Notes under the pieces: generated by a model
What the model was told of the DNA's origin: nothing
Database searches by the model: none
Seen by the model: only the letters and a program-made list of their open reading frames with translations
Part shown: piece after piece, positions 29,508 through 63,731 of the stretch
Position numbering within the stretch: the first letter of the stretch is position 1
Layout of the letters: every line of letters begins with the position of its first letter
Source of the DNA: Octopus sinensis
Taxonomy: Eukaryota
NCBI RefSeq assembly: GCF_006345805.1
Contig: NC_042999.1
Location: 59,582,001-59,646,000, forward strand
Direction of reading: 5' to 3'
DNA: 64,000 nt
Translations under genes and position numbers: made by a program

Positions 29508-29592
29508 GGTAAAAACGTTAAGATAACAAAAGAAAGAAAGAGACCTCAATATTATGTAAATAGAGGAAATTTATCTATAATATATGTTACAT
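29508..29592 (-). mobile_element. Short 3' terminus of the same PLE family as the 56-58 kb palindrome, within (TA)n
   Basis: AAGATAACAAAAGAAAGAAAGAGACCTCAATATTATGTAAATAGAGGAAATTTATCTATA is identical to about 55963-56022. Confidence 0.8.
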
Positions 29593-30866: not shown

Positions 30867-32800
30867 TTAAACTTGGTCTAAATATTTTATGAAATATAGT
30901 TCTTTATTTTGGCGTTGTGTGAAGGTTGCGTTGTCACTGAATTTATAGAGCGGGTTAGTTGTAAATTTCGGATTTACATTTCCAGCACATCTATCTATGT
31001 GTCCGCTGACCGGTATTTTGCGGTAATCAGGGTTTCTAATTTGTGATTTATGCACCGCCATCCTGTTACGTAAGCTATTTTTTGTATGGCCTATATACTG
31101 CCTATTGCAGCCTGCGCATGTTATGACGTAAATTAAGTTTTCTGATGCGCAGGTGAAGTTTGTTCTAATGGTGAACTGGTGGCCTTGTTCCAGTATAAAT
31201 TCTAATCCTTCTTTCAAGATGACACAGATTCCGCAGTTGGGCCTTCCACATTTTCTAACTGCTGGTTTTGTGGTTGATGTTGAGTGCAGTGTAGCTTGGT
31301 TTAAAATCCTTTTCATGGATTTTGGTTGCCGTTTACTTTTAATGATGGTGTGTGTTTCGAGGATCCGGTTCATCTTTGGGTCTCCCTTTAGTAGGGCTGT
31401 GCTTTGTAGTATGGTGTTGAAGGCCTCATTGTTGAGTGGGTTGTGTGTAGAGATGTAGGGAAGGGTTTTTAATTGTTCTTTCTTTTTTGGTTTTGTTTGT
31501 CTCAGGTCTTCTATACTTAATTTAAGTACCCGTTGGATTGCACTGTCTATTAGGGGCTGTGGATAGTTTCTATTTGTGAGTGTGGTTCTAAGTTCCTGGA
31601 GACGTGTGTGTCGGGTGTTTGTGTCTGATATTATGGTGCAAATCCTTCTAGCTAAACAAAAAGGGACATTCATTCTAGTGTGTCGTGGGTGGCATGAATC
31701 AAAGGGTAGGTACTGTTTAGAGTCTGTCGGTTTATAGTAGATATCTGTCTCTATTTTGTTGCCGGTTTTCTTAATGAGGATGTCTAAAAATGGTAATTCT
31801 TTTTCGTTGTGGTCCATCGTGAATTGTATATTGTCATTTATTCCATTTAATAGTATTTTAAATTCCTCAAGTTTCTCTATACCTTTGTCCCAGATGATGA
31901 AACAGTCATCGAGGTATCTTTTCCAGTTGTTATGGATATAGGTGGCGAAGGTGTTTCCATATTTCTCGAGTGTCATCCGGTATAGTATTTTCTCGAGGTA
32001 TCCCATCACTAGGTTGGCAAAAGATGGTGCAGTACGCGTGCCCATCGCTGTTCCCGATCTTGCCTGTAGAAATCATTGTCAAAAATAAAATAATTGTTCT
32101 CTAAAATGAATCTAAGTCCTTCTATTATAAGGTCTTTGTTTATGCGAGTTGGGAGTTCAAAGGGGTAGTTATTCAGCCAGAAGGTGATCGTTTCTATTCC
32201 TAGGTTGTGAGGGATGTTAGAATAAAGATTAACTACGTCGAATGATACTAGAAGGGTTTTCTCATTGACTCTTTTAGGGAGGTGGTTGAGCATATCTATA
32301 TCGTCTCTTACGTAGCTTTTGATGTGTTTTAGGAAAGGTTTAAGAAGTGTGTCTAAGAAATTGCTGAGGCGGTGAGTTTCACATGCTGGCCCTGCTATTA
32401 TCGGTCTTAGTTTAAGATCATTTGGTGAAGGGATTTTGATGAGTGTGTCGGTGGATGTTTTGCACGTTTCTCTAATGGTTTGGCTTTTGTGTACCTTAGG
32501 GATACCATAGAACAAACTCGATTTGCATTTGAAGTTAGTGATGTATTCATACTCCTTGTTCGTGAGTCCTTCTTGGTATGTGTTGATTAATGTCCTAAGG
32601 TTATGCATTATTTTTTGCTGGTTATACTGTTGGGCCCTTTCATAATACGTTTCATCTCTTAATAGGGATAGCACTAAATTTTTATAATCGTTTGTATTCA
32701 TTATTACTATCGCGTTGCCCTTATCTGCCTCCTTAATTGTTATTGTTTTGTCTTCTCTTAGTTTGATGAGGTCATTCCATTCTCTTTTGTTGAAGTTAGG
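30867..32800 (-). pseudogene. PLE reverse transcriptase-GIY-YIG endonuclease polyprotein, one frameshift near 32050
   Basis: ORFs 32009-32701 and 30867-32045 join at the Q..G.AMG motif; the frame is open upstream to the DKG motif. Confidence 0.9.
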
Positions 32801-33139
32801 GCTGTGTTTTTGTTTCTTGATGAATTGAAACGGGAAATTAGTTATGTAGTCACAATAGCTTCATAAAGATATTTACACTTTCTAGGATGGTTGGAAAACA
32901 TATATGTGATTTGGCTGATGAATACTTGACATTATATTTGCTTCGTCTTCCTCCTTATTCTGTAAACGACCCCTGCGATGAAACTGGTACCCATGTGTAT
33001 CGGCATTAAGGAGCCATCCTTTTTTCTTGGCCAACATTCCTGGCGGCCATGGCAAAACGCGGCAAATGCATAGTCAATACAGACCGACGGAGACCCTTCA
33101 TGAAGCGTGTTTGGAAAAAATACACCGAAAAGTACACTG

Positions 33140-51925: not shown

Positions 51926-52829
51926 CATATGTGGGCACAGGACGTCATGTAACGTGTACAACAAAAAAGTACGTAGCACGAGTACACTGAACATGAACTA
52001 TTCTTTTCAACAACGAAAGACATAAATGGAAAACAAAACAAACAACATAAAGAATGACCCTTCATCAGTTGTTGGTTGAATTTCTACTCTCATATTTCGA
52101 GCATTTAGCAACAACATACGCTTTCGACAAAACAGTTGCTCCCGCAAAGGAAATTAATTAAAATTTGGGAATTGGCGGAGGGTCAAAACAAACAGGACAG
52201 TGAAATCAAACAGGAAGGGCTGCCAAGCCTGAGCCAGGTTGTAGTGGCGAACGCGTGAATCAAGCTAGGACAGGAGACAAACAAGAACACGTCTTCCTTG
52301 TTCCATCTACAATGGACAGAAAGAACGAAAGATGACCGATGGTCTCGTGGGAACCACGTGAGCAAGGGAGTAGGAGTGAGGGAAAGAGAGGGACAGAGTA
52401 ATAGGATAGAATAGCGGGAGAAGAGGATGTCGGCACCAGCATTACCAACAGCTTCCCTAAGGTCCACGGTAGGAGACCTAACAACTCCTGTAGCAGCAGC
52501 CAAGGTCCAGTGTCACCGCCAGCTACAATGGCATTCACAGCACCAGCAGCGATAGCGGCCCTAGCAGAGACACCAGTGGAACCACAGCTAATGTCACTGC
52601 TAGCAGTAATGGCAACTCTCCAACCAATGCCGAGGACCATAATAACAACAACGCCTTCACCATAAACGACATTGGCGATACCATTACCGACGCTACCATC
52701 AGCTCCAACGACGCCAACACCAGCAGTCCCGATTCCCACAACAAGAATTTCGTCGGTAACAGCAGCAACAACAACAATACCAGAAGGTACAGCACCGACA
52801 ACACACGCCCACGGAGATACATTGGATGT

Positions 52830-53171
52830 TTCGGGGACTCGTTCATGCAACATCATTCCAACCACAGGTCCTCCTTCAGAATTCCGGAAAGGACACGCGT
52901 AACATCACTGGCCAGACACGTCTGGTTACTAAGAGATGATGGGATCCAATACTTGATCTCATGGAAAATCCTCGGGAACTCAGGCCCCTACATCAACGAG
53001 ACGAAGCGTTGCAAGTTATGCATAGCTGAACGCTTGAGAATCCTAAAAGATTCACTCGAACCAAGAACACACTTGACTCCAGAAAAGATATTTTCGGGCC
53101 ATGTTTTCATTTCAAGAGGTTCCCTGTTAGTCATTTGGAGCCCGCAAAATTGCTTCACAGCCGGACATTAA
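52830..53171 (+). pseudogene. PLE GIY-YIG endonuclease C-terminal fragment
   Basis: TSLARHVWLLRDDGIQYLISWKILG..PY..TKRCKLCIAER aligns to TQLSNHIWSLRDKG..WKILA..PY..RCGLCDMER at 57223. Confidence 0.8.
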
Positions 53172-54720: not shown

Positions 54721-55147
54721 CAGTACAGAACATAAAATCTGTAGAGGAATTATTCTAGTAGTCTTGGAAATGTTTGCAAATTTGCCATTATGTCATTTTT
54801 TGCCGGCATAATTAAAGGATTTAAGTGTAACAATAATATATCATATCTTGTGTTATCTGTATTGTTCATGAAGCAAAATGCGTTGTGTTTATACACCCTT
54901 CTTTATGATACAATGTTTAGCATTACAATTGTAACTCGTAGACGAGTGAAATTGTTAGTCTCGGTTGGTTATTGCATGCATATTATGTTGATATGTTTTC
55001 ATTATCATTTTAAGTGCGGGCCGGTGAGCTGTCAGAACCGTTAGCACGCCGTGCAGAATGCTTAGCGGCATTTCGTCCGAATGGACCCCTCACCAAAATA
55101 GTTTGAACCTTGTGCCTAGAATAGAAATGAATATGTAAGTTTACAAA

Positions 55148-55352
55148 GGCGGCGAGCTGGCAGAATCGTTAGCACGCCGGGCGAAATGCTTAGCGGCATT
55201 TGGTCCCTCTTTACGTTCTGAGTTCAAATTCTGCCGAGGTAGACTTTTCCTCCTTCCGGTGGTCGATAAAATAAGTTCCAGTCAAGTACTGAAGTCGATA
55301 TAATCGACAACTCCCCTCCCCCAATATTTCAGGCTTTGTGCTTTTAGTAGAA
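55148..55352 (+). mobile_element. SINE family B monomer
   Basis: GGCGGCGAGCTGGCAGAATCGTTAGCACGCCGGGCGAAATGC head. Confidence 0.88.
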
Positions 55353-55911
55353 AGAACTGTCATTTTAAATGCTGACATTTTTGTACTGTGTATTATTTTG
55401 CACGTATAATTTTATTTTCTGTAAGAGCGTCTTTCTAGCATTTATGCTGTCAATGCGAAATATCGTTCAAGGTGTCAGATGTTGCTAAGTGTGACTTTTC
55501 GTATTATATGATCATTTTCTTGCCTCAAAATCGTTTTGAATTGTAACAGATATGTCTGTATTCATAAAATACAAAAAAATTCCAGGTGAATGGGAATCTA
55601 AAGAGGTTTTATATATTTGCGTTTATTTTCAATTTATTTTTTTAAATACGATGCCCGATGATAATAAAATACATGTTTGTATATGCGTGTGTGATGATAT
55701 CGATCAGTGATGTACGTGAAGGGTTTTGTGGGTTGGCTATATCTGAGTCTTGATTATCACCAATTGAATAATTATATTGAATAATATAATTAAGTACTAA
55801 TGCCATATATTTGTGTGTGTGTGTTTGTGTGTATGTATATATGCTGATATGTATGTATATTAGTATATATAGATATCAAAATATAGATAGATATGTATGT
55901 ATGTACGTATT

Positions 55912-55952
<41 letters not shown>

Positions 55953-56305
55953 ATAAAACGGTAAGATAACAAAAGAAAGAAAGAGACCTCAATATTATGT
56001 AAATAGAGGAAATTTATCTATACAATATGTTACATTACTCGGTAGTCAAGATAAAACTCTGAGTTTCAGATGCCGAAGTGGAAATCCACAACACCATCTC
56101 TTCGGTTATCTGGCTATTTGAAAACGTTATGAAAAAATACCGTTAAAAATGAAGGGAAATTACTCTGTTATAACTCTGCTTTGCCTGCGTACTTATACAT
56201 CGCTCGCATTTTTCGTCATAAAAATTATATAAAAATACATAAAAATATATAAAAATATATAAAAATATATAAAATCTTCTTGGGACATAACACAGAAAGC
56301 ATGTT

Positions 56306-57076
56306 CTATCCGTTTTCTTTAGGGGACCAAAAACGTAACAGAAATTTAGTCACATGTGGGCATGATCCGAAAAGCTCTGTCCTTGTATTTAGACATGTGG
56401 TAGGGTCTAAGCTGCTTTTCCAGATAAGCCATCTCTCCATGTCGCATAAAACCCACCTTCCGCTGCCGTTAGTATAGGGCTTACATCTGGCCAAAATCTT
56501 CCATTGTATGTTATAATCGACACCTTTATCTCTTAAAGACCAAATATGATTGGATAATTGTGTCGCTTTTCTTTTGTTCCAGTGCCTAAAGCTCAAAGTG
56601 TGGTTATTGAACCTGGCCTTGAAATTACCCTCTGTCAGGCCCACGTATTTCTTCGTCGAAACGGTGTCTTTAGTGGTTATAGAGTTTACGGTAGCTTCAT
56701 ATATGATGGTCTTGGACATGCAAGCTCCATTTAGCGGGCACAATTCTTTATTCCTGCATGAACAGCTGTTTTCTTCTTGTGTTTTTTGTATGTTATGATT
56801 GATTATGTTTTTAAAATTGGTAGTTGAACTAAAACTAATTTTTAAATTGTGTCTATTAAAGAGTTTCCTATAAGCATGGTTAACTGGAAAATGTCTATCT
56901 ATCAGTGCTAGGAAATATTTACCTATATTGAAGGCCACCTCGGGTGAGTAAGGGGGCGTAAACCAGATGACCTTCCTATTTCTATTATTCCTTTTCCTTA
57001 TTGTTGGGCTGGTGATAGGTGTATATTTTATTTTTTCGCTAAAACCACTATCTTTTAAAGCTTTATTATAAACTGT
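56306..57076 (-). CDS. PLE RT-thumb/linker + GIY-YIG endonuclease, 5'-truncated (left arm)
   Basis: Open frame YNKALKDSGF..IWFTPPYS..CSCRNKELCPLNGAC..IIYEATV..YVGLTE.NFKARFNNH. Confidence 0.8.
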   Translation of the reverse strand, partial: TVYNKALKDSGFSEKIKYTPITSPTIRKRNNRNRKVIWFTPPYSPEVAFNIGKYFLALIDRHFPVNHAYRKLFNRHNLKISFSSTTNFKNIINHNIQKTQEENSCSCRNKELCPLNGACMSKTIIYEATVNSITTKDTVSTKKYVGLTEGNFKARFNNHTLSFRHWNKRKATQLSNHIWSLRDKGVDYNIQWKILARCKPYTNGSGRWVLCDMERWLIWKSSLDPTTCLNTRTELFGSCPHVTKFLLRFWSPKENG

Positions 57077-57084
57077 TTATTATA

Positions 57085-57855
57085 ACAGTTTATAATAAAG
57101 CTTTAAAAGATAGTGGTTTTAGCGAAAAAATAAAATATACACCTATCACCAGCCCAACAATAAGGAAAAGGAATAATAGAAATAGGAAGGTCATCTGGTT
57201 TACGCCCCCTTACTCACCCGAGGTGGCCTTCAATATAGGTAAATATTTCCTAGCACTGATAGATAGACATTTTCCAGTTAACCATGCTTATAGGAAACTC
57301 TTTAATAGACACAATTTAAAAATTAGTTTTAGTTCAACTACCAATTTTAAAAACATAATCAATCATAACATACAAAAAACACAAGAAGAAAACAGCTGTT
57401 CATGCAGGAATAAAGAATTGTGCCCGCTAAATGGAGCTTGCATGTCCAAGACCATCATATATGAAGCTACCGTAAACTCTATAACCACTAAAGACACCGT
57501 TTCGACGAAGAAATACGTGGGCCTGACAGAGGGTAATTTCAAGGCCAGGTTCAATAACCACACTTTGAGCTTTAGGCACTGGAACAAAAGAAAAGCGACA
57601 CAATTATCCAATCATATTTGGTCTTTAAGAGATAAAGGTGTCGATTATAACATACAATGGAAGATTTTGGCCAGATGTAAGCCCTATACTAACGGCAGCG
57701 GAAGGTGCGGTTTATGCGACATGGAGAGATGGCTTATCTGGAAAAGCAGCTTAGACCCTACCACATGTCTAAATACAAGGACAGAGCTTTTCGGATCATG
57801 CCCACATGTGACTAAATTTCTGTTACGTTTTTGGTCCCCTAAAGAAAACGGATAG
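57085..57855 (+). CDS. PLE RT-thumb/linker + GIY-YIG endonuclease, 5'-truncated (right arm)
   Basis: Same protein with the CxxC intact (RCGLC); the annotated start at 57223 is GTG and the frame is open from the hairpin centre. Confidence 0.82.
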   Translation, partial: TVYNKALKDSGFSEKIKYTPITSPTIRKRNNRNRKVIWFTPPYSPEVAFNIGKYFLALIDRHFPVNHAYRKLFNRHNLKISFSSTTNFKNIINHNIQKTQEENSCSCRNKELCPLNGACMSKTIIYEATVNSITTKDTVSTKKYVGLTEGNFKARFNNHTLSFRHWNKRKATQLSNHIWSLRDKGVDYNIQWKILARCKPYTNGSGRCGLCDMERWLIWKSSLDPTTCLNTRTELFGSCPHVTKFLLRFWSPKENG

Positions 57856-58050
57856 AACATGCTTTCTGTGTTATGTCCCAAGAAGATTTTATATATTTTT
57901 ATATATTTTTATATATTTTTATGTATTTTTATATAATTTTTATGACGAAAAATGCGAGCGATGTATAAGTACGCAGGCAAAGCAGAGTTATAACAGAGTA
58001 ATTTCCCTTCATTTTTAACGGTATTTTTTCATAACGTTTTCAAATAGCCA

Positions 58051-58111
58051 GATAACCGAAGAGATGGTGTTGTGGATTTCCACTTCGGCATCTGAAACTC
58101 AGAGTTTTATC
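58051..58111 (+). ncRNA. Type I hammerhead-like motif in the PLE 3' pLTR (mirror copy 56050-56110, minus)
   Basis: GATAA CCGAAGA GATG...CATC T GAAA CTC A GAG TT TTATC. Stems I, II and III pair; core variant U4C and a 1-nt register shift. Confidence 0.6.
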
Positions 58112-58143
58112 TTGACTACCGAGTAATGTAACATATTGTATAG

Positions 58144-58176
<33 letters not shown>

Positions 58177-59257
58177 CGTGTATATATATATGGGTGAGTG
58201 TATATATTTATATATATATATATACGCATGCATACATTTATTCATATACACACATAGATATGCATGTGTGTGTGTGTGCATGTGCGTGTGTGCATACGTG
58301 AGTGTGTATAACATTATACACACTAACAAAATGAAAAATTAGGAAGTTTATAAAATGTTTTCGGTTTCCCTATTTTTTAAAATTTTATATATATATATAT
58401 ATATTGTCGATATTTAATCAGTCAAGCAATCGTAAATTGATAATATGATTTTAAAAAAATAACTAAATTGATTCTGGAAACGACGGTTTACCTTTTGTGA
58501 TTTTCTTAGGAATTTTAGTTCACTAGCATCCATGTTGCTCTTGTCCCACATTTTCTTTGATCTTTTTGTAGTCTTTTTACTTAATTCGACGACTTTTAAG
58601 TTTCCGAATTGACAAAAGTACCCCCTTTTTTTTTTCCTCTCTAGATATCTCACACACATTGGAATTCAAAAAAGGAAATGCTGATAAAAACATAACAAAA
58701 TAACTTGAAAAGTTGATATTTTAAAATAGAATTTTCAAAAAATCAAAAGAACTAAATTTTATATGAAGGAACGGATAAAATCTTTTTCTCGTCTTTTTGC
58801 ATCCTTTTATCTTATTCGATGAATCACAATACATATAAAGAATTTGTCAATTTACGTTGGCTTGCAAAACGTAGAGAAATTATTAGTTTTTTTTTCTTTT
58901 CCTCTTCATTTCTGTTTTTAAATTGTTGCTTTAAATAAATTGATCTTTTTCGTTAAAATAATTTTTTCCTTGGTTATTTTATCTCTTCATTCTAAAGAAC
59001 TGTTGAATCAGCGGAAATCCAGAATACGTGTCCTGAAATGGTACGGTCTTTTTTTTTTTTTTTTTTTTTTGTTCTCCTTCGTCTTTTCTACACCAGACTC
59101 AATCACACGATGTTTCAGAATTGAAAAGAGAAAACGATCGAAAAAAGAAAGAGTCAGAATAAAACAAAATGTAAAAAAAAAATTTGAAGAACGTTGAAAG
59201 TTTCCAGTAAAAAAAGCTGATGAACATTTTTAAGAAACAGGCAAATTAAAATACATT

Positions 59258-60561: not shown

Positions 60562-63500
60562 TCACTGACAGAAGAGTGACTTTGCTTACCGTACTACGGT
60601 TTGGACGCGTTTTCTTCCCGGTAAGAGTTTTGCTGTGTTGTTAATTGTTGAATTCCTACTACTGAAAATTTGCCTTTAAACGCTGCTGAACTGTCTTGTT
60701 CTCCGGTTTTACCGGGAAATAATTGAATAATTTCTTACCGTTGAACTGTTAGCCACTGTGGCTTGTTATTTACGTGACTATATATAGTCCTGCCAGACTA
60801 TTTTCGTGCCCCTCCCCCGAATGGGGGTGGGAATTGGAATTTTTGAACTGCTTTTTTGAACTACTTTGGAAGAAAAACTTTCTATAGGTTTCCCAGTTTT
60901 GTGGGAAACCAATACTCGTAATTTTTGTGTTGTCTAATTTCAACAGAATAATGTCTGTTGAAATTATTCACGAAAGTAGTGCTCTTGAGGAGAGCAATGT
61001 TAAAAAATTTTCTGAGGTAGCCGCGGTGGCTGCCGAGAACATTGACATCGATGTCAACCAGCTCGTCGAGCTATTTAAAAGAATGCAAGAGGAGGGTGGT
61101 GATGTTAAAATATCACCCTCCGCCAGTATCGTGGAGACCGAGAAGCGGACCGTAGTGTTTAAAACTTTCTGTCCACAAAGCAGAAGGTTCAAACACTTTG
61201 AAAAAAGCACCATCGAGAAATGCCTGTCCCCGATTTGGAAGGACATCGTGTACGTCGCCAAGGGACGGGCATATGGCACTGTGGATGTCCGCTTCTCGGG
61301 GGAAGAAATGGCCCGCGGGCATTCTGTGAACCCCCTAAAAACCAAGGAGGTGGTACTTTTCCCAAGCTATAGGGGACGCAGGACGTCCCGGGTCAGGATT
61401 GTAGAAGCCCCGCCGGAAGTAGATCCGTAGAGGTAGTGGTCGCCCTATTATATAAAAGGGCGGACAAAATAAAAATACTAGAAGTACATGCTCTACCCCT
61501 CGATTTTGGCTCGGGCGTAACATTAATATATTAATTCAAGGAACAGCGGAGGACCTACAGCTCCTTCCTGAGAGGGTGCTCGTGGGCGAGAACGTAGCCC
61601 TCAGGGTACAGGTCGAAGGCCGAAAACCCACCTGTTACGCCTGCGGCAAAAAGGGCCACATTCGTGTAGACTGTCCAGACAAGTAAAAGAAACCGCAGAC
61701 ACCAGGCCCCTCAGATAATAAAAAAGTCCCTACCCTTGCAAACACACCTACCCCTACAAAAACAAAAAATCCCACTCCTGCTGTTACGGTGCCAACCCCA
61801 AAACACGACTGAAGAAAAAACCCAGCCCTCGCACTCACAAACCCCTACACTATTAAACCTCCCACCCCCCCCCTAAAACTGCGGCGCCTACCGAACAATC
61901 TATTGCTACCCCAGACGATACCATGGAGGTATCAGAGGGGGGATTTACACCAGTTCGTAAAAGAATTCGTGCAGCATCCCCGTCCACATCCCCTACAAAA
62001 AATAATAAAAACAAAGACACACCACAGACAGGGAAAAAAAAATCCCGCTCAACTGGCCCAGAAAAAGAAGACAAAAAAGAAAATGAACTCATATTAATTG
62101 AATTCGACACACAAGACAAATACATAAACGATATTGTGGTTCAGCATCAGTCAGCAAGACTGTACAACAAATACAAAGATCGAAATAGACACGCGTGGAT
62201 TGCGGAAACAACGTTCAAACAATTAAAAGACAGACACCCAACACCATCCGGCATGTCGCGAACTTGCCGGACTATCTGAAGAAGAGGAGAAAGAAGGGGC
62301 CCACAAACGTGTGGTGAGGTCGGCCCCCCCCTCTCCAACGAAATGTAAGTAGAACTTTTACTTTTTGTAATGGCTTCGCTTAACCTTGGTTGTTTAATGT
62401 GCGTGGTCTGAGTTCGAAGTGGAAGCAGGCTTGTTTCCTCGACGACGACCTCAGATCACATGATATACATGTGATGGTTGCTACAGAGACCAAGCTGGAC
62501 AGCCTACAAACCTTCTCGCCTCTCCTGAATGGCTACGAGAAAATCATGTCTCCTGGCCAGACCGGAGGGCGAGGGGGCGTAGTGGTACTGATCCGTAAAG
62601 ACTTGGCTCTACAGACAAGTACAGTCTATGTAGACCCAGAAGGTGGGCTGGTCGTCCTTGATGTGACATACAGCAGTAAGGCCTTCAGGTTGATCGGACT
62701 CTATGCACCTTGTGCTAGAGGTTTCCAAACTGATTTTTATCGGCGCCTAGAGGGCTTTCTCGTGACGTCGAAGACTTTAGTGATATTAGGGGACTTTAAT
62801 GCTATCGTTGACGTACACATCGATAGCGTTGGCTCGATCTATAGGAAAGTGAACTCACGTCTCGTGGATCTGCTTAAGCGGTTTCAGCTAGCAGATCGTT
62901 ACAGACTTTACCATCCGAACGTCCCAGAGTGGACCTGGATGAGTGGCGACGGAAGGTTCAAGTCTTATCTAGACAGGATAGTGATAAGAACTAGAGATAA
63001 GTCTAGTTTTAGTTGTCCACAGCTCGTCCAGGTGCCCTATACTGACCATAGAATGGTCACGTGTAGACTGGACATAGATAGCACACTTAAGATAGGAACC
63101 GGCTACTGGAAGCTGAACAAGTCTATTTTGACACGCGAGGCATACCGTAGCCGGATTAAGGTGTTAGTGCAGAGGGCGTTAACCGGAGCCGTGGTTAATA
63201 ACCGGTGGTGGTTCACCCTCAAAAGAGCCATTCGATTCGAGTCCATTAGATTTAGTAAACAACTAAGACTAGATAGGGCTAGAATAGAAGGGCAACTAGT
63301 TAAGAACTTAGAGGAGGCGTTGAGGTTGGGCTCTGCATCTCACATTTTAGCGGCGAGAACGGCATTAGACCGTCACCTCAAAACCAAACATGAGGGATGT
63401 AGAGTCCGGGCTAAAGTACGAGCATTGGGCCGTGAGGGAATTAATGTTGCCGGATGGGCCCGTACGATAGAAACACAGCGTGGAAACGATGCCACAATTG

Positions 63501-63731
63501 GGTCTCTGTGATGAAAAAACGGATGCACGATCAAGAAGCGGGACGAGATGTGTGAGGCACTTCACAAGCACTTCGCCGAGTTGTTCGGGAGGTGCGGGAC
63601 GCTGGATCATGGTGAGGCCCTTAGGGACTTCCTGTCTGGTGGCCCGCGCCTCTCGACACGAGAGGCTGAGTGCTGTGAAGGGCCAATCACAGCCGAGGAA
63701 GTAATCGAGGTGTTGGGCAAGTGCCCCGGGG
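60562..63731 (+). mobile_element. L1/Tx1-like LINE: 5' UTR, ORF1 (CCHC) and 3'-truncated ORF2
   Basis: ORF1 ATG at 60951 with CYACGKKGHIRVDC at 61632; ORF2 starts at 62370. Confidence 0.9.
62370..63731 (+). pseudogene. Tx1/L1 ORF2 APE endonuclease domain plus linker (RT missing)
   Basis: NVRGL, TETK, GGVVVL, LYAP, LGDFNA, WTW, SYLDRI, TDH, GYWKLN, GPITAEEV. Confidence 0.9.

What the first reader, a model, noticed from the sequence alone, without database searches (positions are those of the whole stretch)
55952..58146. 2.1-kb near-perfect palindrome: two outward-facing GIY-YIG ORFs, each followed by a hammerhead-like motif
Seen: 1063-bp arms around a 6-nt loop (TATTAT), with about 2 mismatches noticed. 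TTTATTATAA is directly repeated at 57062 and 57076 at the turn. Only the left arm has the last ~63 nt of the element, both ends lie in (TA)n, and there is no RT core. Inference: TPRT began at the left TA tract, then the cDNA folded back by microhomology and copied itself. Any read-through transcript would form a ~1-kb hairpin (siRNA or ADAR substrate) with a ribozyme-like motif at its 3' end. Known: PLEs often have inverted partial duplications. The linker CxCR..CPL.G.C differs from the Neptune-type copy, so this is another clade (possibly Nematis-like).
Basis: partly seen in the sequence, partly recalled or inferred. Interest (0 to 1): 0.72.

Follow-up and report, generated by a model that had tools for sequence, protein, structure and literature searches.

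The report
Head-to-head Penelope-like retrotransposon insertion
This 2.2-kb near-perfect palindrome is two truncated, head-to-head copies of a young, very abundant Penelope-like retrotransposon (Hydra clade) sitting in a TA microsatellite; the arrangement is typical of these elements and was likely made in one insertion event by reverse transcription primed from both cut DNA ends.

Summary
The arms are 56012-57077 and 57084-58149 (1066 nt), with a 6-nt spacer TATTAT and 3 mismatches. Each arm carries an outward-facing 256-aa ORF remnant. Only the left arm has an extra 61-64 nt, and (TA)n lies on both sides.

Each arm is the 3' 1.06 kb (unit 1466-2529) of a ~2.59-kb Penelope-like element. [quoted passage not shown] RWK and DKT motifs, CxxC/CxH, size under 3 kb and (TA)n targeting match the published Hydra clade (relative: Hydra-1_Obim), not Nematis.

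The left-only extension is the PLE "tail". The motif after each ORF lines up block by block with the annotated hammerhead of Hydra-1_oBim, but its core reads CCGAAGAG (U4 to C), and Rfam does not detect it.

The arrangement is the family norm:
- 23 of 24 close neighbour pairs in a 100-site sample are head-to-head.
- All 23 pairs checked carry exactly one tail.
- 14 of 22 sampled junctions are near-symmetric, against 2.9 expected by shuffling.

Whether the palindrome arose by two-ended priming or by cDNA snap-back is unresolved; I favour two-ended priming. Independent reads could not confirm the centre.

Verdict: a real, ordinary new member of a known kind.

The parts
55920..55950 (.). Left half of the (TA)n microsatellite target
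   Evidence: Read directly from the sequence. The 24 nt beyond the left end are 100% TA/AT steps.
55951..56011 (-). PLE 'tail': unit 2530-2590, present on the left arm only (61-64 nt; boundary ambiguous)
   Evidence: blastn of the natural unit maps q1466-2590 to 57075-55951, while the right arm stops at q2529. In 14 of 20 loci read upstream of the unit start, this same sequence lies between an upstream partial copy and the unit start.
56012..57075 (-). Left arm: 5'-truncated element copy, unit 1466-2529, antisense on the + strand
   Evidence: 99.7% identical to the natural unit from L035. Equals the majority letter of 26 other copies at every position except two private ones, 56451 and 56453.
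56309..57076 (-). ORF remnant of 256 aa (C-terminal third of a ~708-aa ORF); stop codon at 56306-56308
   Evidence: tblastn, 98.8% to the L066 ORF fragment, residues 291-545.
56049..56111 (-). Hammerhead-like motif of the left arm (unit 2430-2492)
   Evidence: Exact match of the 63-nt motif on the - strand.
57076..57085 (.). Centre filler TTTATTATAA, not collinear with the element. 57078-57083 (TATTAT) is the non-palindromic spacer. The filler repeats 57062-71 (= antisense of unit 1470-1479).
   Evidence: Other copies read ...GCCCCAGTTTATAAT at this point. The 36-nt junction occurs once in the 2.72-Gb genome.
57086..58149 (+). Right arm: 5'-truncated element copy, unit 1466-2529, without a tail. 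The last 3 nt merge into the TA tract.
57085..57852 (+). ORF remnant of 256 aa; stop codon at 57853-57855
57397..57423 (+). Linker CSCRNKELC (CxCX5C); mirror copy at 56738-56764 (-)
   Evidence: One search gives the position. The linker cysteines C394, C396 and C402 (the CxCX5C motif) and the following C408 are each invariant in 38 of 38 homologues.
57454..57807 (+). GIY-YIG endonuclease region from IIYEATV to SCPH, including YVGLTEG, R, H, CGLC-x2-E, N and CPH; mirror copy at 56354-56707 (-)
   Evidence: One search gives the positions. Y415, Y433, G435, R444, H448, C497, C500, E503, N519, C528 and H530 are invariant in 38 of 38 homologues. Pfam GIY-YIG matches weakly.
57885..57940 (+). Short 10-nt tandem repeat (TTTTTATATA-like) in the 3' UTR; mirror copy at 56221-56274
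   Evidence: the repeat finder D3/D4 and I10/I11.
58050..58112 (+). Hammerhead-like motif: AGATAA | CCGAAGAG | 30-nt helix II | GAA | ACTC-A-GAGT | T | TTATCT. The cut would fall after unit 2486, which is 58106.
   Evidence: It has the same block order as the HHR listed for Hydra-1_oBim in File S2 of Craig et al. 2021. Core position 4 is C instead of U.
58150..58171 (.). Right half of the (TA)n target
   Evidence: 0.91 TA/AT steps.

Best explanation
The palindrome is one recent insertion of a Hydra-clade Penelope-like retrotransposon into a (TA)n microsatellite that left two 5'-truncated copies head to head, and it was likely made by reverse transcription primed from both cut target ends.

Shown directly:
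- Each arm is unit 1466-2529 of a ~2.59-kb element with an RT, a CxCX5C linker and a GIY-YIG ORF.
- Both outer ends abut (TA)n.
- Only the left arm carries the 61-64-nt tail.
- The same head-to-head, one-tail layout is the norm for this family.

Inferred:
1. The element's endonuclease cuts both strands of the TA tract.
2. One 3'-OH primes at the outer RT start site (unit 2590, which gives the tail). The other primes about 61 nt upstream (unit ~2529, TATAGATA).
3. Both cDNAs stop at or near unit 1466.
4. The two like-sense cDNA 3' ends are joined through a short templated filler (TTTATTATAA). Each is then completed on the other, giving the palindrome.

I hold the identity part at about 0.9 and the two-ended-priming part at about 0.5.
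For: Identity of the element:
- The arm has 2003 first-look candidates in its own genome. 41 of the 48 listed matches are near full length at 99-100% identity.
- The natural unit is 2590 nt, arranged as partial tandems with upstream inverted copies.
- The ORF fragments carry RMRWKAFFF, FSDKT, FDIVDFY, MGSYDGA, YKDD, CSCRNKELC, GIY-YIG residues, CGLC and CPH. The catalytic and Cys/His positions are invariant in 38 of 38 homologues.
- An AlphaFold model (mean pLDDT 79.7) matches reverse transcriptases. Top Foldseek hits are retron Ec83 RT (4e-7) and Candida telomerase (8e-7), with 107 hits at E<=0.001.
- ESM Atlas neighbour clusters carry HTH_animal, RVT_1 and GIY-YIG.
- These features equal the Hydra-clade description. 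The supplement lists Hydra-1_Obim at 2507 bp with (TA)n preference, and its protein is visibly alike.

Family pattern:
- Of 100 listed sites of a 23-mer from the 3' UTR on contig C1, the neighbours within 5 kb are 23 (-,+), 1 (+,+) and 0 (+,-).
- Exactly one tail per pair holds in 23 of 23 (22 C1 pairs plus the window). It also holds in 12 of 12 further pairs with both outer ends in view.
- 34 of 45 outer ends are followed by at least 70% TA/AT steps.

For two-ended priming:
- In 13 C1 pairs with |A-B|>=5, the tail arm is longer in 6 and the tail-less arm in 7. A copy made by snap-back cannot be longer than its template.
- Spacers of 0-2 nt occur in 5 of 17 near-symmetric junctions.
- Junctions mostly show 0-7 nt of overlap.
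- In vitro, the Poseidon PLE PAc cleaves and extends both strands and starts at two adjacent internal sites whose interval is the tail (Frangieh et al. 2024, main text read).
Against: - This locus is symmetric (A = B = 1466), so it cannot itself tell the two routes apart.
- Near-symmetric junctions are far too common for independent stops: 14 of 22 against a shuffle mean of 2.9, with 0 of 100,000 shuffles reaching 14. Excluding the 3'-proximal cluster gives 7 of 15 against 1.1. Two-ended priming therefore needs an extra, unproven coupling, such as both RTs on one RNA, a shared RNA 5' end, or a stalled dimer. Snap-back gives symmetry for free.
- About 3 chance near-symmetric pairs are expected, so the 3-4 near-symmetric pairs with a longer tail-less arm do not exclude snap-back for the rest.
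- The in vitro data come from another PLE clade.
- The strict one-tail rule is not predicted by random use of two start sites on both strands.
- Both arms equal the family majority sequence, so no private variants tie them to a single template.
- No independent read or contig was shown to bridge the centre.
Confidence: 0.5

Rival explanations
1. Snap-back (self-priming) of one cDNA. TPRT starts at the left TA tract at the outer start site. The cDNA reaches unit 1466, slips back 14 nt and re-copies 10 nt. Its terminal AA then pairs with TT across a 6-nt loop, and the RT copies the cDNA itself. The new sense strand is joined to the right TA tract at TATAGATA, possibly after endonuclease cleavage next to the tail.
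For: - The arms are exactly symmetric with a 6-nt spacer, and the filler duplicates adjacent sequence.
- The family shows a strong excess of near-symmetric junctions (14 of 22 against 2.9).
- 12 of 17 near-symmetric junctions have spacers of 4-35 nt, long enough for a hairpin loop.
- By my reading, the spacer continues the tail-bearing arm in 5 of 8 informative cases.
- Arkhipova et al. 2013 (passages read) interpret palindromic inverted junctions of PLEs as self-priming.
Against: - The tail-less arm is longer in 7 of 13 unequal pairs, and the spacer continues the tail-less arm in 3 of 8 informative near-symmetric pairs. A copy cannot outrun its template, nor gain a tail its template lacks.
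- Spacers of 0-2 nt in 5 of 17 junctions are too short for an intramolecular primer.
- It needs a second mechanism for the many asymmetric pairs (28 of about 31 junctions in the first, long-copy-biased sample).
Confidence: 0.33
2. Assembly artefact: a fold-back chimeric long read, or a mis-join of two copies of a very abundant repeat, created a palindrome that is not in the animal's DNA.
For: - Both arms equal the family majority sequence.
- The assembly carries many 1-nt indels in copies of this family, and 0 of 9 full-length copies have an open ORF, so its consensus quality is imperfect.
- Craig et al. 2021 note that such structures cause assembly problems.
- No contig from 4 runs was shown to bridge the centre.
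Against: - The flanks on the two sides differ and lie within a 2.7-Gb chromosome-scale contig.
- The structure obeys the family's biological rules: one tail, (TA)n on both sides, tail-less end at TATAGATA.
- At least 22 other head-to-head pairs exist on one contig alone. Some are old: 90-97% identical to the unit, with their two arms diverged from each other (L074: 5 mismatches in 1529 nt; L081: 8 in 148; L089: 11 in 1256). A read chimera would not give that.
- The left arm has two private differences.
Confidence: 0.07
3. Later DNA-level event: a single 5'-truncated copy was duplicated in inverted form by replication template switching or fold-back repair. Alternatively, two independent insertions landed back to back in the same TA tract.
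For: - Fold-back and template-switch mechanisms make inverted duplications with short templated fillers (titles and abstracts only, in the search listing).
- TA tracts are hot targets for this family.
Against: - Two independent insertions would not share the same truncation point (1466 and 1466).
- Neither route would give one tail in 35 of 35 pairs, or 23 head-to-head against 0 tail-to-tail neighbours.
- A DNA-level fold-back of a resident copy would duplicate flanking TA sequence or the tail rather than stop at the second RT start site.
Confidence: 0.05

Closest known systems
Hydra clade of Penelope-like elements, in particular Hydra-1_Obim (Craig, Yushenova, Rodriguez, Arkhipova 2021, Mol Biol Evol; PMC8557442; sections 6, 11, 20 and supplement files S1/S2 read)
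   Same: - C-terminal GIY-YIG after the RT, a single ORF and size under 3 kb (2590 against 2507 bp).
- RWK and DKT motifs, a CxCX5C linker, and CxxC and CxH around the conserved E and N.
- (TA)n insertion preference.
- A hammerhead block layout about 100-160 nt from the 3' end.
- The N-terminus and RT are visibly alike in the printed supplement sequence.
   Different: - It is a separate family. The best database relatives are 53% identical. I made no computed alignment to Hydra-1_Obim, because I did not type the supplement's sequence into a tool.
- Hydra-1_Obim is listed with 'no pLTR', whereas here partial tandems with pLTR and tail are common.
- The hammerhead core reads CCGAAGAG here against ctgaagag there.
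Poseidon element PAc of Anolis (Frangieh et al. 2024, Mob DNA; PMC11167929; main text read)
   Same: - A tail defined by two adjacent RT start sites.
- An AT-rich target.
- Tandem or pLTR organisation.
- A hammerhead that is not needed for insertion in vitro.
- Both target strands are cleaved and extended, which is the activity needed for head-to-head products.
   Different: - It belongs to a different clade (Penelope/Poseidon).
- Its tail is 30-40 bp and lies inside the ORF start, whereas here it is 61-64 nt at the unit end.
- Nothing was tested biochemically here.
Inverted pLTR arrangements of Penelope in Drosophila, fish and Adineta vaga (Arkhipova et al. 2013, Mob DNA; PMC3846280; passages read)
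   Same: - An inverted 5'-truncated copy next to the element.
- A tail on only one of the inverted repeats.
- Palindromes at the inverted junction.
- Head-to-head is the usual orientation.
- A self-priming hypothesis is proposed.
   Different: Those are low-copy elements with short (~200-bp) inverted pLTRs flanking a full ORF. Here the whole insert is just the two 1.06-kb 3' parts, in a family with thousands of copies.
Twin priming of human L1 (recalled from memory; no paper read here)
   Same: Both target 3' ends prime reverse transcription, and the two cDNAs are joined by microhomology.
   Different: L1 twin priming on one RNA gives an inversion of the 5' part. It does not give two copies of the same 3' part.

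Membership tests
Penelope-like elements, Hydra clade | RT followed by a C-terminal GIY-YIG endonuclease in a single ORF; element under 3 kb | tested here: met
   - The natural unit is 2590 nt.
- Overlapping natural ORF fragments span unit 108-2232, about 708 aa.
- The RT fold is supported by AF2 plus Foldseek.
- GIY-YIG residues are invariant in 38 of 38 homologues.
- Caveat: 0 of 9 full-length copies examined have the ORF uninterrupted.
Penelope-like elements, Hydra clade | RWK motif near the N-terminus, and DKT in place of DKG | tested here: met
   RMRWKAFFF and FSDKTKN occur in the L060 ORF fragment.
Penelope-like elements, Hydra clade | [quoted passage not shown] | tested here: met
   CSCRNKELC, CGLC-DM-E and N...SCPH are present. 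All Cys/His positions are invariant in 38 of 38 homologues.
Penelope-like elements, Hydra clade | No internal CCHH motif in the endonuclease | tested here: inconclusive
   By inspection, the EN has no obvious CCHH block between the GIY and YIG halves. I had no reference alignment of CCHH-bearing clades in a tool to place the motif.
Penelope-like elements, Hydra clade | Insertion into (TA)n | tested here: met
   Both window flanks are (TA)n. 34 of 45 outer ends in the sample are at least 70% TA/AT steps.
Penelope-like elements, Hydra clade | Canonical hammerhead ribozyme | tested here: not met
   - No Rfam hammerhead at gathering score or at E<=10, in the window or in a full tandem copy.
- No CUGANGA box in the arms.
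- A homologous motif with core CCGAAGAG is present.
- The canonical CTGAAGAG form occurs in 210 exact 23-mer sites against 2319 for the C form. The five loci sampled (L067-L071) lie in 84-89% diverged relatives.
Penelope-like elements (general architecture) | Partial tandems (pLTR), an adjacent inverted 5'-truncated copy, and a tail at one end only | tested here: met
   The description is in Craig 2021, section 6 and Fig. 2 legend.
   The linker is CxCX5C (C394, C396, C402), the form the paper gives as the Hydra modification of the Nematis finger.
Hammerhead ribozyme (type I / PLE minimal form) | Core boxes CUGANGA and GAAA | tested here: not met
   The first box reads CCGAAGA (position 4 is C). 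The second box, GAAA, is present.
Hammerhead ribozyme (type I / PLE minimal form) | Helices I, II and III around the core, and a UH cleavage site | tested here: met
   - Helix I: AGATAA/TTATCT.
- Helix II: GATG/CATC plus an inner GUGG/CCAC stem, both found in the MFE fold.
- Helix III: ACTC-A-GAGT, with the same 4-1-4 layout as Hydra-1_oBim, followed by U.
- An extra U lies between helix II and G12.
Hammerhead ribozyme (type I / PLE minimal form) | Self-cleavage | not testable with these tools
   Perreault et al. 2011 (passages read) state that a U4C variant has considerably decreased activity in vitro yet still permits viroid infectivity.

The most novel reading that the evidence does not exclude
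The family's genomic footprints record a coupled, two-ended reverse transcription by one PLE particle. Every head-to-head pair has exactly one tail (35 of 35). Arm lengths are correlated far beyond chance. Either arm can be the longer one, and some junctions have no spacer at all. This would mean the two adjacent RT start sites are used once each, one per target end, probably on a single RNA or within an RT dimer. It would give the in vitro 'both strands extended' result an in vivo counterpart.

In addition, the subfamily that burst to more than 2,300 copies carries a U4-to-C hammerhead core, while diverged relatives keep the canonical core. That would be a natural experiment showing that efficient ribozyme cleavage is dispensable for PLE amplification.
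Probability: 0.3. Interest if true: 0.55.

Novelty: new member of a known kind. Interest (0 to 1): 0.28.

Why it matters
For annotating this window, it matters little. The palindrome is a dead, truncated retrotransposon insertion of a clade already described in an octopus genome (Hydra-1_Obim), in an arrangement already described for PLEs.

Its value is as clean material for a mechanism that is still open. This young family has thousands of copies, sharp ends, a long tail and many palindromic junctions. A full census could discriminate snap-back from two-ended priming, and could test whether hammerhead activity matters in vivo.

Long perfect hairpins of this kind are also candidate sources of double-stranded RNA if they are transcribed through. 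That was not tested here.

Tried and rejected
- **Rfam.** No family reached gathering score in the whole window. At E<=10 on 55900-58250 and on a full tandem copy (L066), the only matches were microRNA-precursor models on the palindrome centre or on the TA/TG microsatellites, all below gathering score. These are by-products of any perfect hairpin.
- **Hammerhead core search.** CUGANGA followed by 4-40 nt and GAAA found nothing in the arms. There was one lone CUGANGA in a full copy, with no GAAA partner.
- **Pfam.** No RVT hit on any fragment of the ORF or on three homologues, and only a sub-threshold GIY-YIG match. PF26215 and PF28514, precomputed for homologues, are not in the local Pfam copy.
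- **PDB by sequence.** 0 hits with the protein, and 2 chance-level ASXL1 hits with the profile.
- **Reads.** 24 runs were listed, and no RNA holder was listed. The second, on 55300-58240 with 4 runs, gave only short Logan contigs inside the repeat, and no listed piece bridged the centre or the flank junctions. The single-copy left flank 55327-55801 is covered in all 4 runs. This gives no verdict on the artefact question.
- **Private variants.** I looked for variants shared by both arms to tie them to one template. There are none; both arms equal the majority of 26 copies.
- **Earlier scan notes.** Nothing by place or by sequence.
- **Literature.** A search for a PLE-specific hairpin or template-switch model gave no PLE paper beyond those already found.
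- **Intact ORF.** 0 of 9 full-length copies have one. I did not repair or merge frames.
Full report
**Observation**

The palindrome is real in the sequence.
- The repeat finder reports arms 56012-57077 and 57084-58149, 1066 nt each, with 6 nt between them.
- A base-by-base comparison gives 3 mismatches (56014/58147, 56451/57710, 56453/57708) and the spacer TATTAT. Complementarity ends just outside the arms.
- The decamer TTTATTATAA stands at 57062 and again at 57076.
- Each arm holds an outward-facing open frame of 256 aa: 56309-57076 on the - strand and 57085-57852 on the + strand.
- (TA)n lies on both sides, at 55920-55950 and 58150-58171.
- Only the left arm runs on for another 61-64 nt, at 55951-56011.

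**What the arms are**

The window lies in a 2.72-Gb genome of 13,516 contigs. One arm has 2003 first-look candidates there, and 41 of the 48 listed matches are near full length at 99-100% identity.

Other copies continue upstream of the point where the window's arms meet. They define a unit of 2590 nt in a natural copy (L035). The 5' 501 nt have only 381 candidates, as expected for frequent 5' truncation. The window's arms are unit 1466-2529 on the right and 1466-2590 on the left.

In 14 of 20 loci read upstream of the unit start, the unit is preceded directly by the 3' end of another copy, including the same 61 nt. This is the partial-tandem 'pseudo-LTR' layout of Penelope-like elements (PLEs).

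**Protein**

Overlapping natural ORF fragments span unit 108-2232, about 708 aa. None of 9 full-length copies has the frame uninterrupted. Many of the differences are single-base indels, which look like assembly errors. I repaired nothing.

The fragments carry these motifs:
- N-terminal and RT region: RMRWKAFFF, FSDKT, KDHK...CRLINP.
- RT motifs: FDIVDFY, MGSYDGA and YKDD.
- Linker: CSCRNKELC.
- GIY-YIG region: IIY...YVG...R...H...E...N, with CGLC before the E and CPH after the N.

All of these catalytic and Cys/His positions are invariant in 38 of 38 aligned homologues.

Other evidence on the protein:
- Pfam sees only a sub-threshold GIY-YIG match and no RT.
- PDB sequence searches are empty.
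- An AlphaFold model of a 545-aa natural fragment (mean pLDDT 79.7) matches reverse transcriptases. The top hits include retron RTs and Candida telomerase, with 107 hits at E<=0.001.
- ESM Atlas neighbour clusters carry HTH_animal, RVT_1 and GIY-YIG.
- The protein database holds 887 relatives at E<=0.001. Most of the 120 listed are 600-740 aa, and the best is 53% identical.

**Clade**

Craig et al. 2021 (section 11 read) define the Hydra clade as follows:
- C-terminal EN+, under 3 kb.
- An RWK motif, and DKT for DKG.
- No CCHH in the EN.
- A linker modified from the Nematis CX2-5CxxC to CxCX5C.
- CxxC and CxH around the conserved E and N.
- Insertions into (TA)n.
- Hosts including Mollusca.

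Every feature I could test is met, apart from the canonical hammerhead discussed below. Their supplement lists Hydra-1_Obim (2507 bp, (TA)n) and prints its protein. That protein is plainly similar to this ORF, for example ...RRMRWKAFFFD... and ...NPKCRLINPAKSE.... The element is a new family, or a congener, of a described clade.

**The 'tail'**

The 61-64 nt present only on the left arm is the PLE tail.
- Arkhipova et al. 2013 place it on one of the inverted pLTRs.
- Frangieh et al. 2024 show in vitro that a Poseidon PLE starts reverse transcription at two adjacent internal sites and that the tail is the stretch between them.

In this family the two end types are sharp...GTATAGATA at about unit 2526-2529, and ...CCGTTTTATCA at unit 2590.

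**Hammerhead-like motif**

Rfam finds no hammerhead at gathering score or at E<=10, either in the window or in a full tandem copy. There is no CUGANGA box in the arms.

[quoted passage not shown] The window has the same blocks at 58050-58112 (+) and 56049-56111 (-): AGATAA | CCGAAGAG | a 30-nt helix II | GAA | ACTC-A-GAGT | T | TTATCT.

It differs in having C at core position 4 and an extra U before G12.

Genome-wide, the 23-mer with CCGAAGAG occurs 2319 times and the canonical CTGAAGAG form 210 times. The five canonical-form loci that I read (L067-L071) lie in relatives only 84-89% identical to this unit. Perreault et al. 2011 note that U4C considerably lowers activity in vitro, while a viroid carrying it stays infectious. 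Activity here is untested.

**How common the arrangement is**

Of the first 100 listed sites of that 23-mer on contig C1, the neighbours within 5 kb are 23 (-,+), 1 (+,+) and 0 (+,-).

I fetched 22 of the 23 pairs; the remaining one was already held as L035. The results were:
- Each of the 22, and the window, has exactly one tail-bearing outer end (23 of 23). So do 12 of 12 further pairs from my first sample.
- 34 of 45 outer ends are followed by at least 70% TA/AT steps.
- The truncation points A and B of the two arms differ by 20 nt or less in 14 of 22 pairs. Shuffling partners gives a mean of 2.9, and none of 100,000 shuffles reaches 14. Without the 3'-proximal cluster the figures are 7 of 15 against 1.1.

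My first sample was chosen by score to long queries and so was biased to long copies. It had about 31 distinct junctions, of which only 3 were near-symmetric.

Older pairs are 90-97% identical to the unit, and their two arms have diverged from each other. This argues that such palindromes are genomic and persist, rather than being read chimeras.

**Mechanism**

Two routes fit this locus.

(a) Snap-back. One cDNA, primed at the left TA tract, turns back on itself and is copied. This explains the symmetry directly.

(b) Two-ended priming. Each cut target end primes a cDNA, and the two like-sense 3' ends are joined.

Family data favour (b) as the general route:
- Among 13 pairs with |A-B|>=5, the tail-less arm is the longer one in 7. 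A snap-back copy of a tail-bearing cDNA cannot produce that.
- 5 of 17 near-symmetric junctions have spacers of 0-2 nt, too short for an intramolecular primer.
- PAc extends both strands in vitro.

Against (b):
- The strong excess of symmetric junctions needs a coupling that I can only infer. Candidates are both RTs on one RNA with two start sites, a shared RNA 5' end, or a stalled dimer.
- About 3 chance-symmetric pairs are expected, so (a) may still account for most symmetric cases, including this one.

In the window, the 10-nt filler repeats the antisense of unit 1470-1479. It is a short templated insertion that fits either route.

I put (b) at about 0.5, (a) at about 0.33, assembly artefact at about 0.07, and a later DNA-level duplication at about 0.05.

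**What could not be settled**

- Independent confirmation of the centre junction failed. The other returned only short contigs inside the repeat.
- The junction is unique in the assembly.
- Both arms equal the majority of 26 other copies at all 1064 positions, apart from two private changes in the left arm and the terminal base. The insertion is therefore young, but nothing ties the arms to a single template.
- Expression, small RNAs and editing were not testable.

**Verdict**

This is a real and correctly described structure. It is an ordinary example of a known architecture in a known clade, so interest in the locus itself is low. The family-wide regularities make the family, rather than this locus, worth a census. 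Those regularities are the one-tail rule, the correlated arm lengths, and the U4C core in the burst subfamily.

Noticed in passing
window 30870-32860 (-): Two adjoining open frames (401 and 283 aa) of a different PLE. They carry EADKG (the DKG form), RYLDDCF and a Pfam GIY-YIG hit above cut-off (E 1.6e-5, 25.6 bits).
   Followed up: partly
window 52494-53168 (+): A 225-aa open frame whose C-terminal 120 aa are 38% identical to this element's endonuclease (BLASTP 1e-24). It looks like a fragment of a second, diverged Hydra-like element, 3 kb upstream of the palindrome.
   Followed up: partly
window 29512-29592 (-): An isolated 81-nt fragment, 96% identical to unit 2506-2586. It consists of little more than the tail region of the same family.
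   Followed up: no
window 62384-63508 (+): A 375-aa open frame with a full Exo_endo_phos domain (E 8e-13). It is probably the AP-endonuclease part of a LINE.
   Followed up: no
L065 (G000:C26:5181000-5186300): Upstream of a full unit, the block [unit 2338-2590 + unit 1-~275] is repeated three times in tandem. This is a short array of the pLTR-tail-5'UTR junction.
   Followed up: no
L061 (G000:C16:30286000-30291500): A larger nested palindrome with layout (-)1159-2529, (+)2338-2590, (+)1-1141, (-)1-961, (-)2338-2590, (+)1159-... Two composite insertions appear to face each other head to head.
   Followed up: no
L073, L080, L082 (contig C1): Three older (~90%) pairs share the same junction (A = B = 2427, inside the hammerhead-like motif). 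The palindrome may itself have been copied, or this may be a recurrent stop point.
   Followed up: no
family copies L002-L066: Copies differ mostly by single-base indels in homopolymer runs, and 0 of 9 full-length copies keep the ORF open. This pattern looks like residual long-read consensus error rather than decay.
   Followed up: partly
window 55022-55078 and 55150-55206: A 57-nt direct repeat, 88% identical, spaced 128 nt apart, just upstream of the finding (D6).
   Followed up: no
window 56962-57199: Plant and animal microRNA-precursor models of Rfam score up to 138 bits on the palindrome centre, all below their gathering scores. This is a generic response to a long perfect hairpin, not a miRNA gene.
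   Followed up: yes
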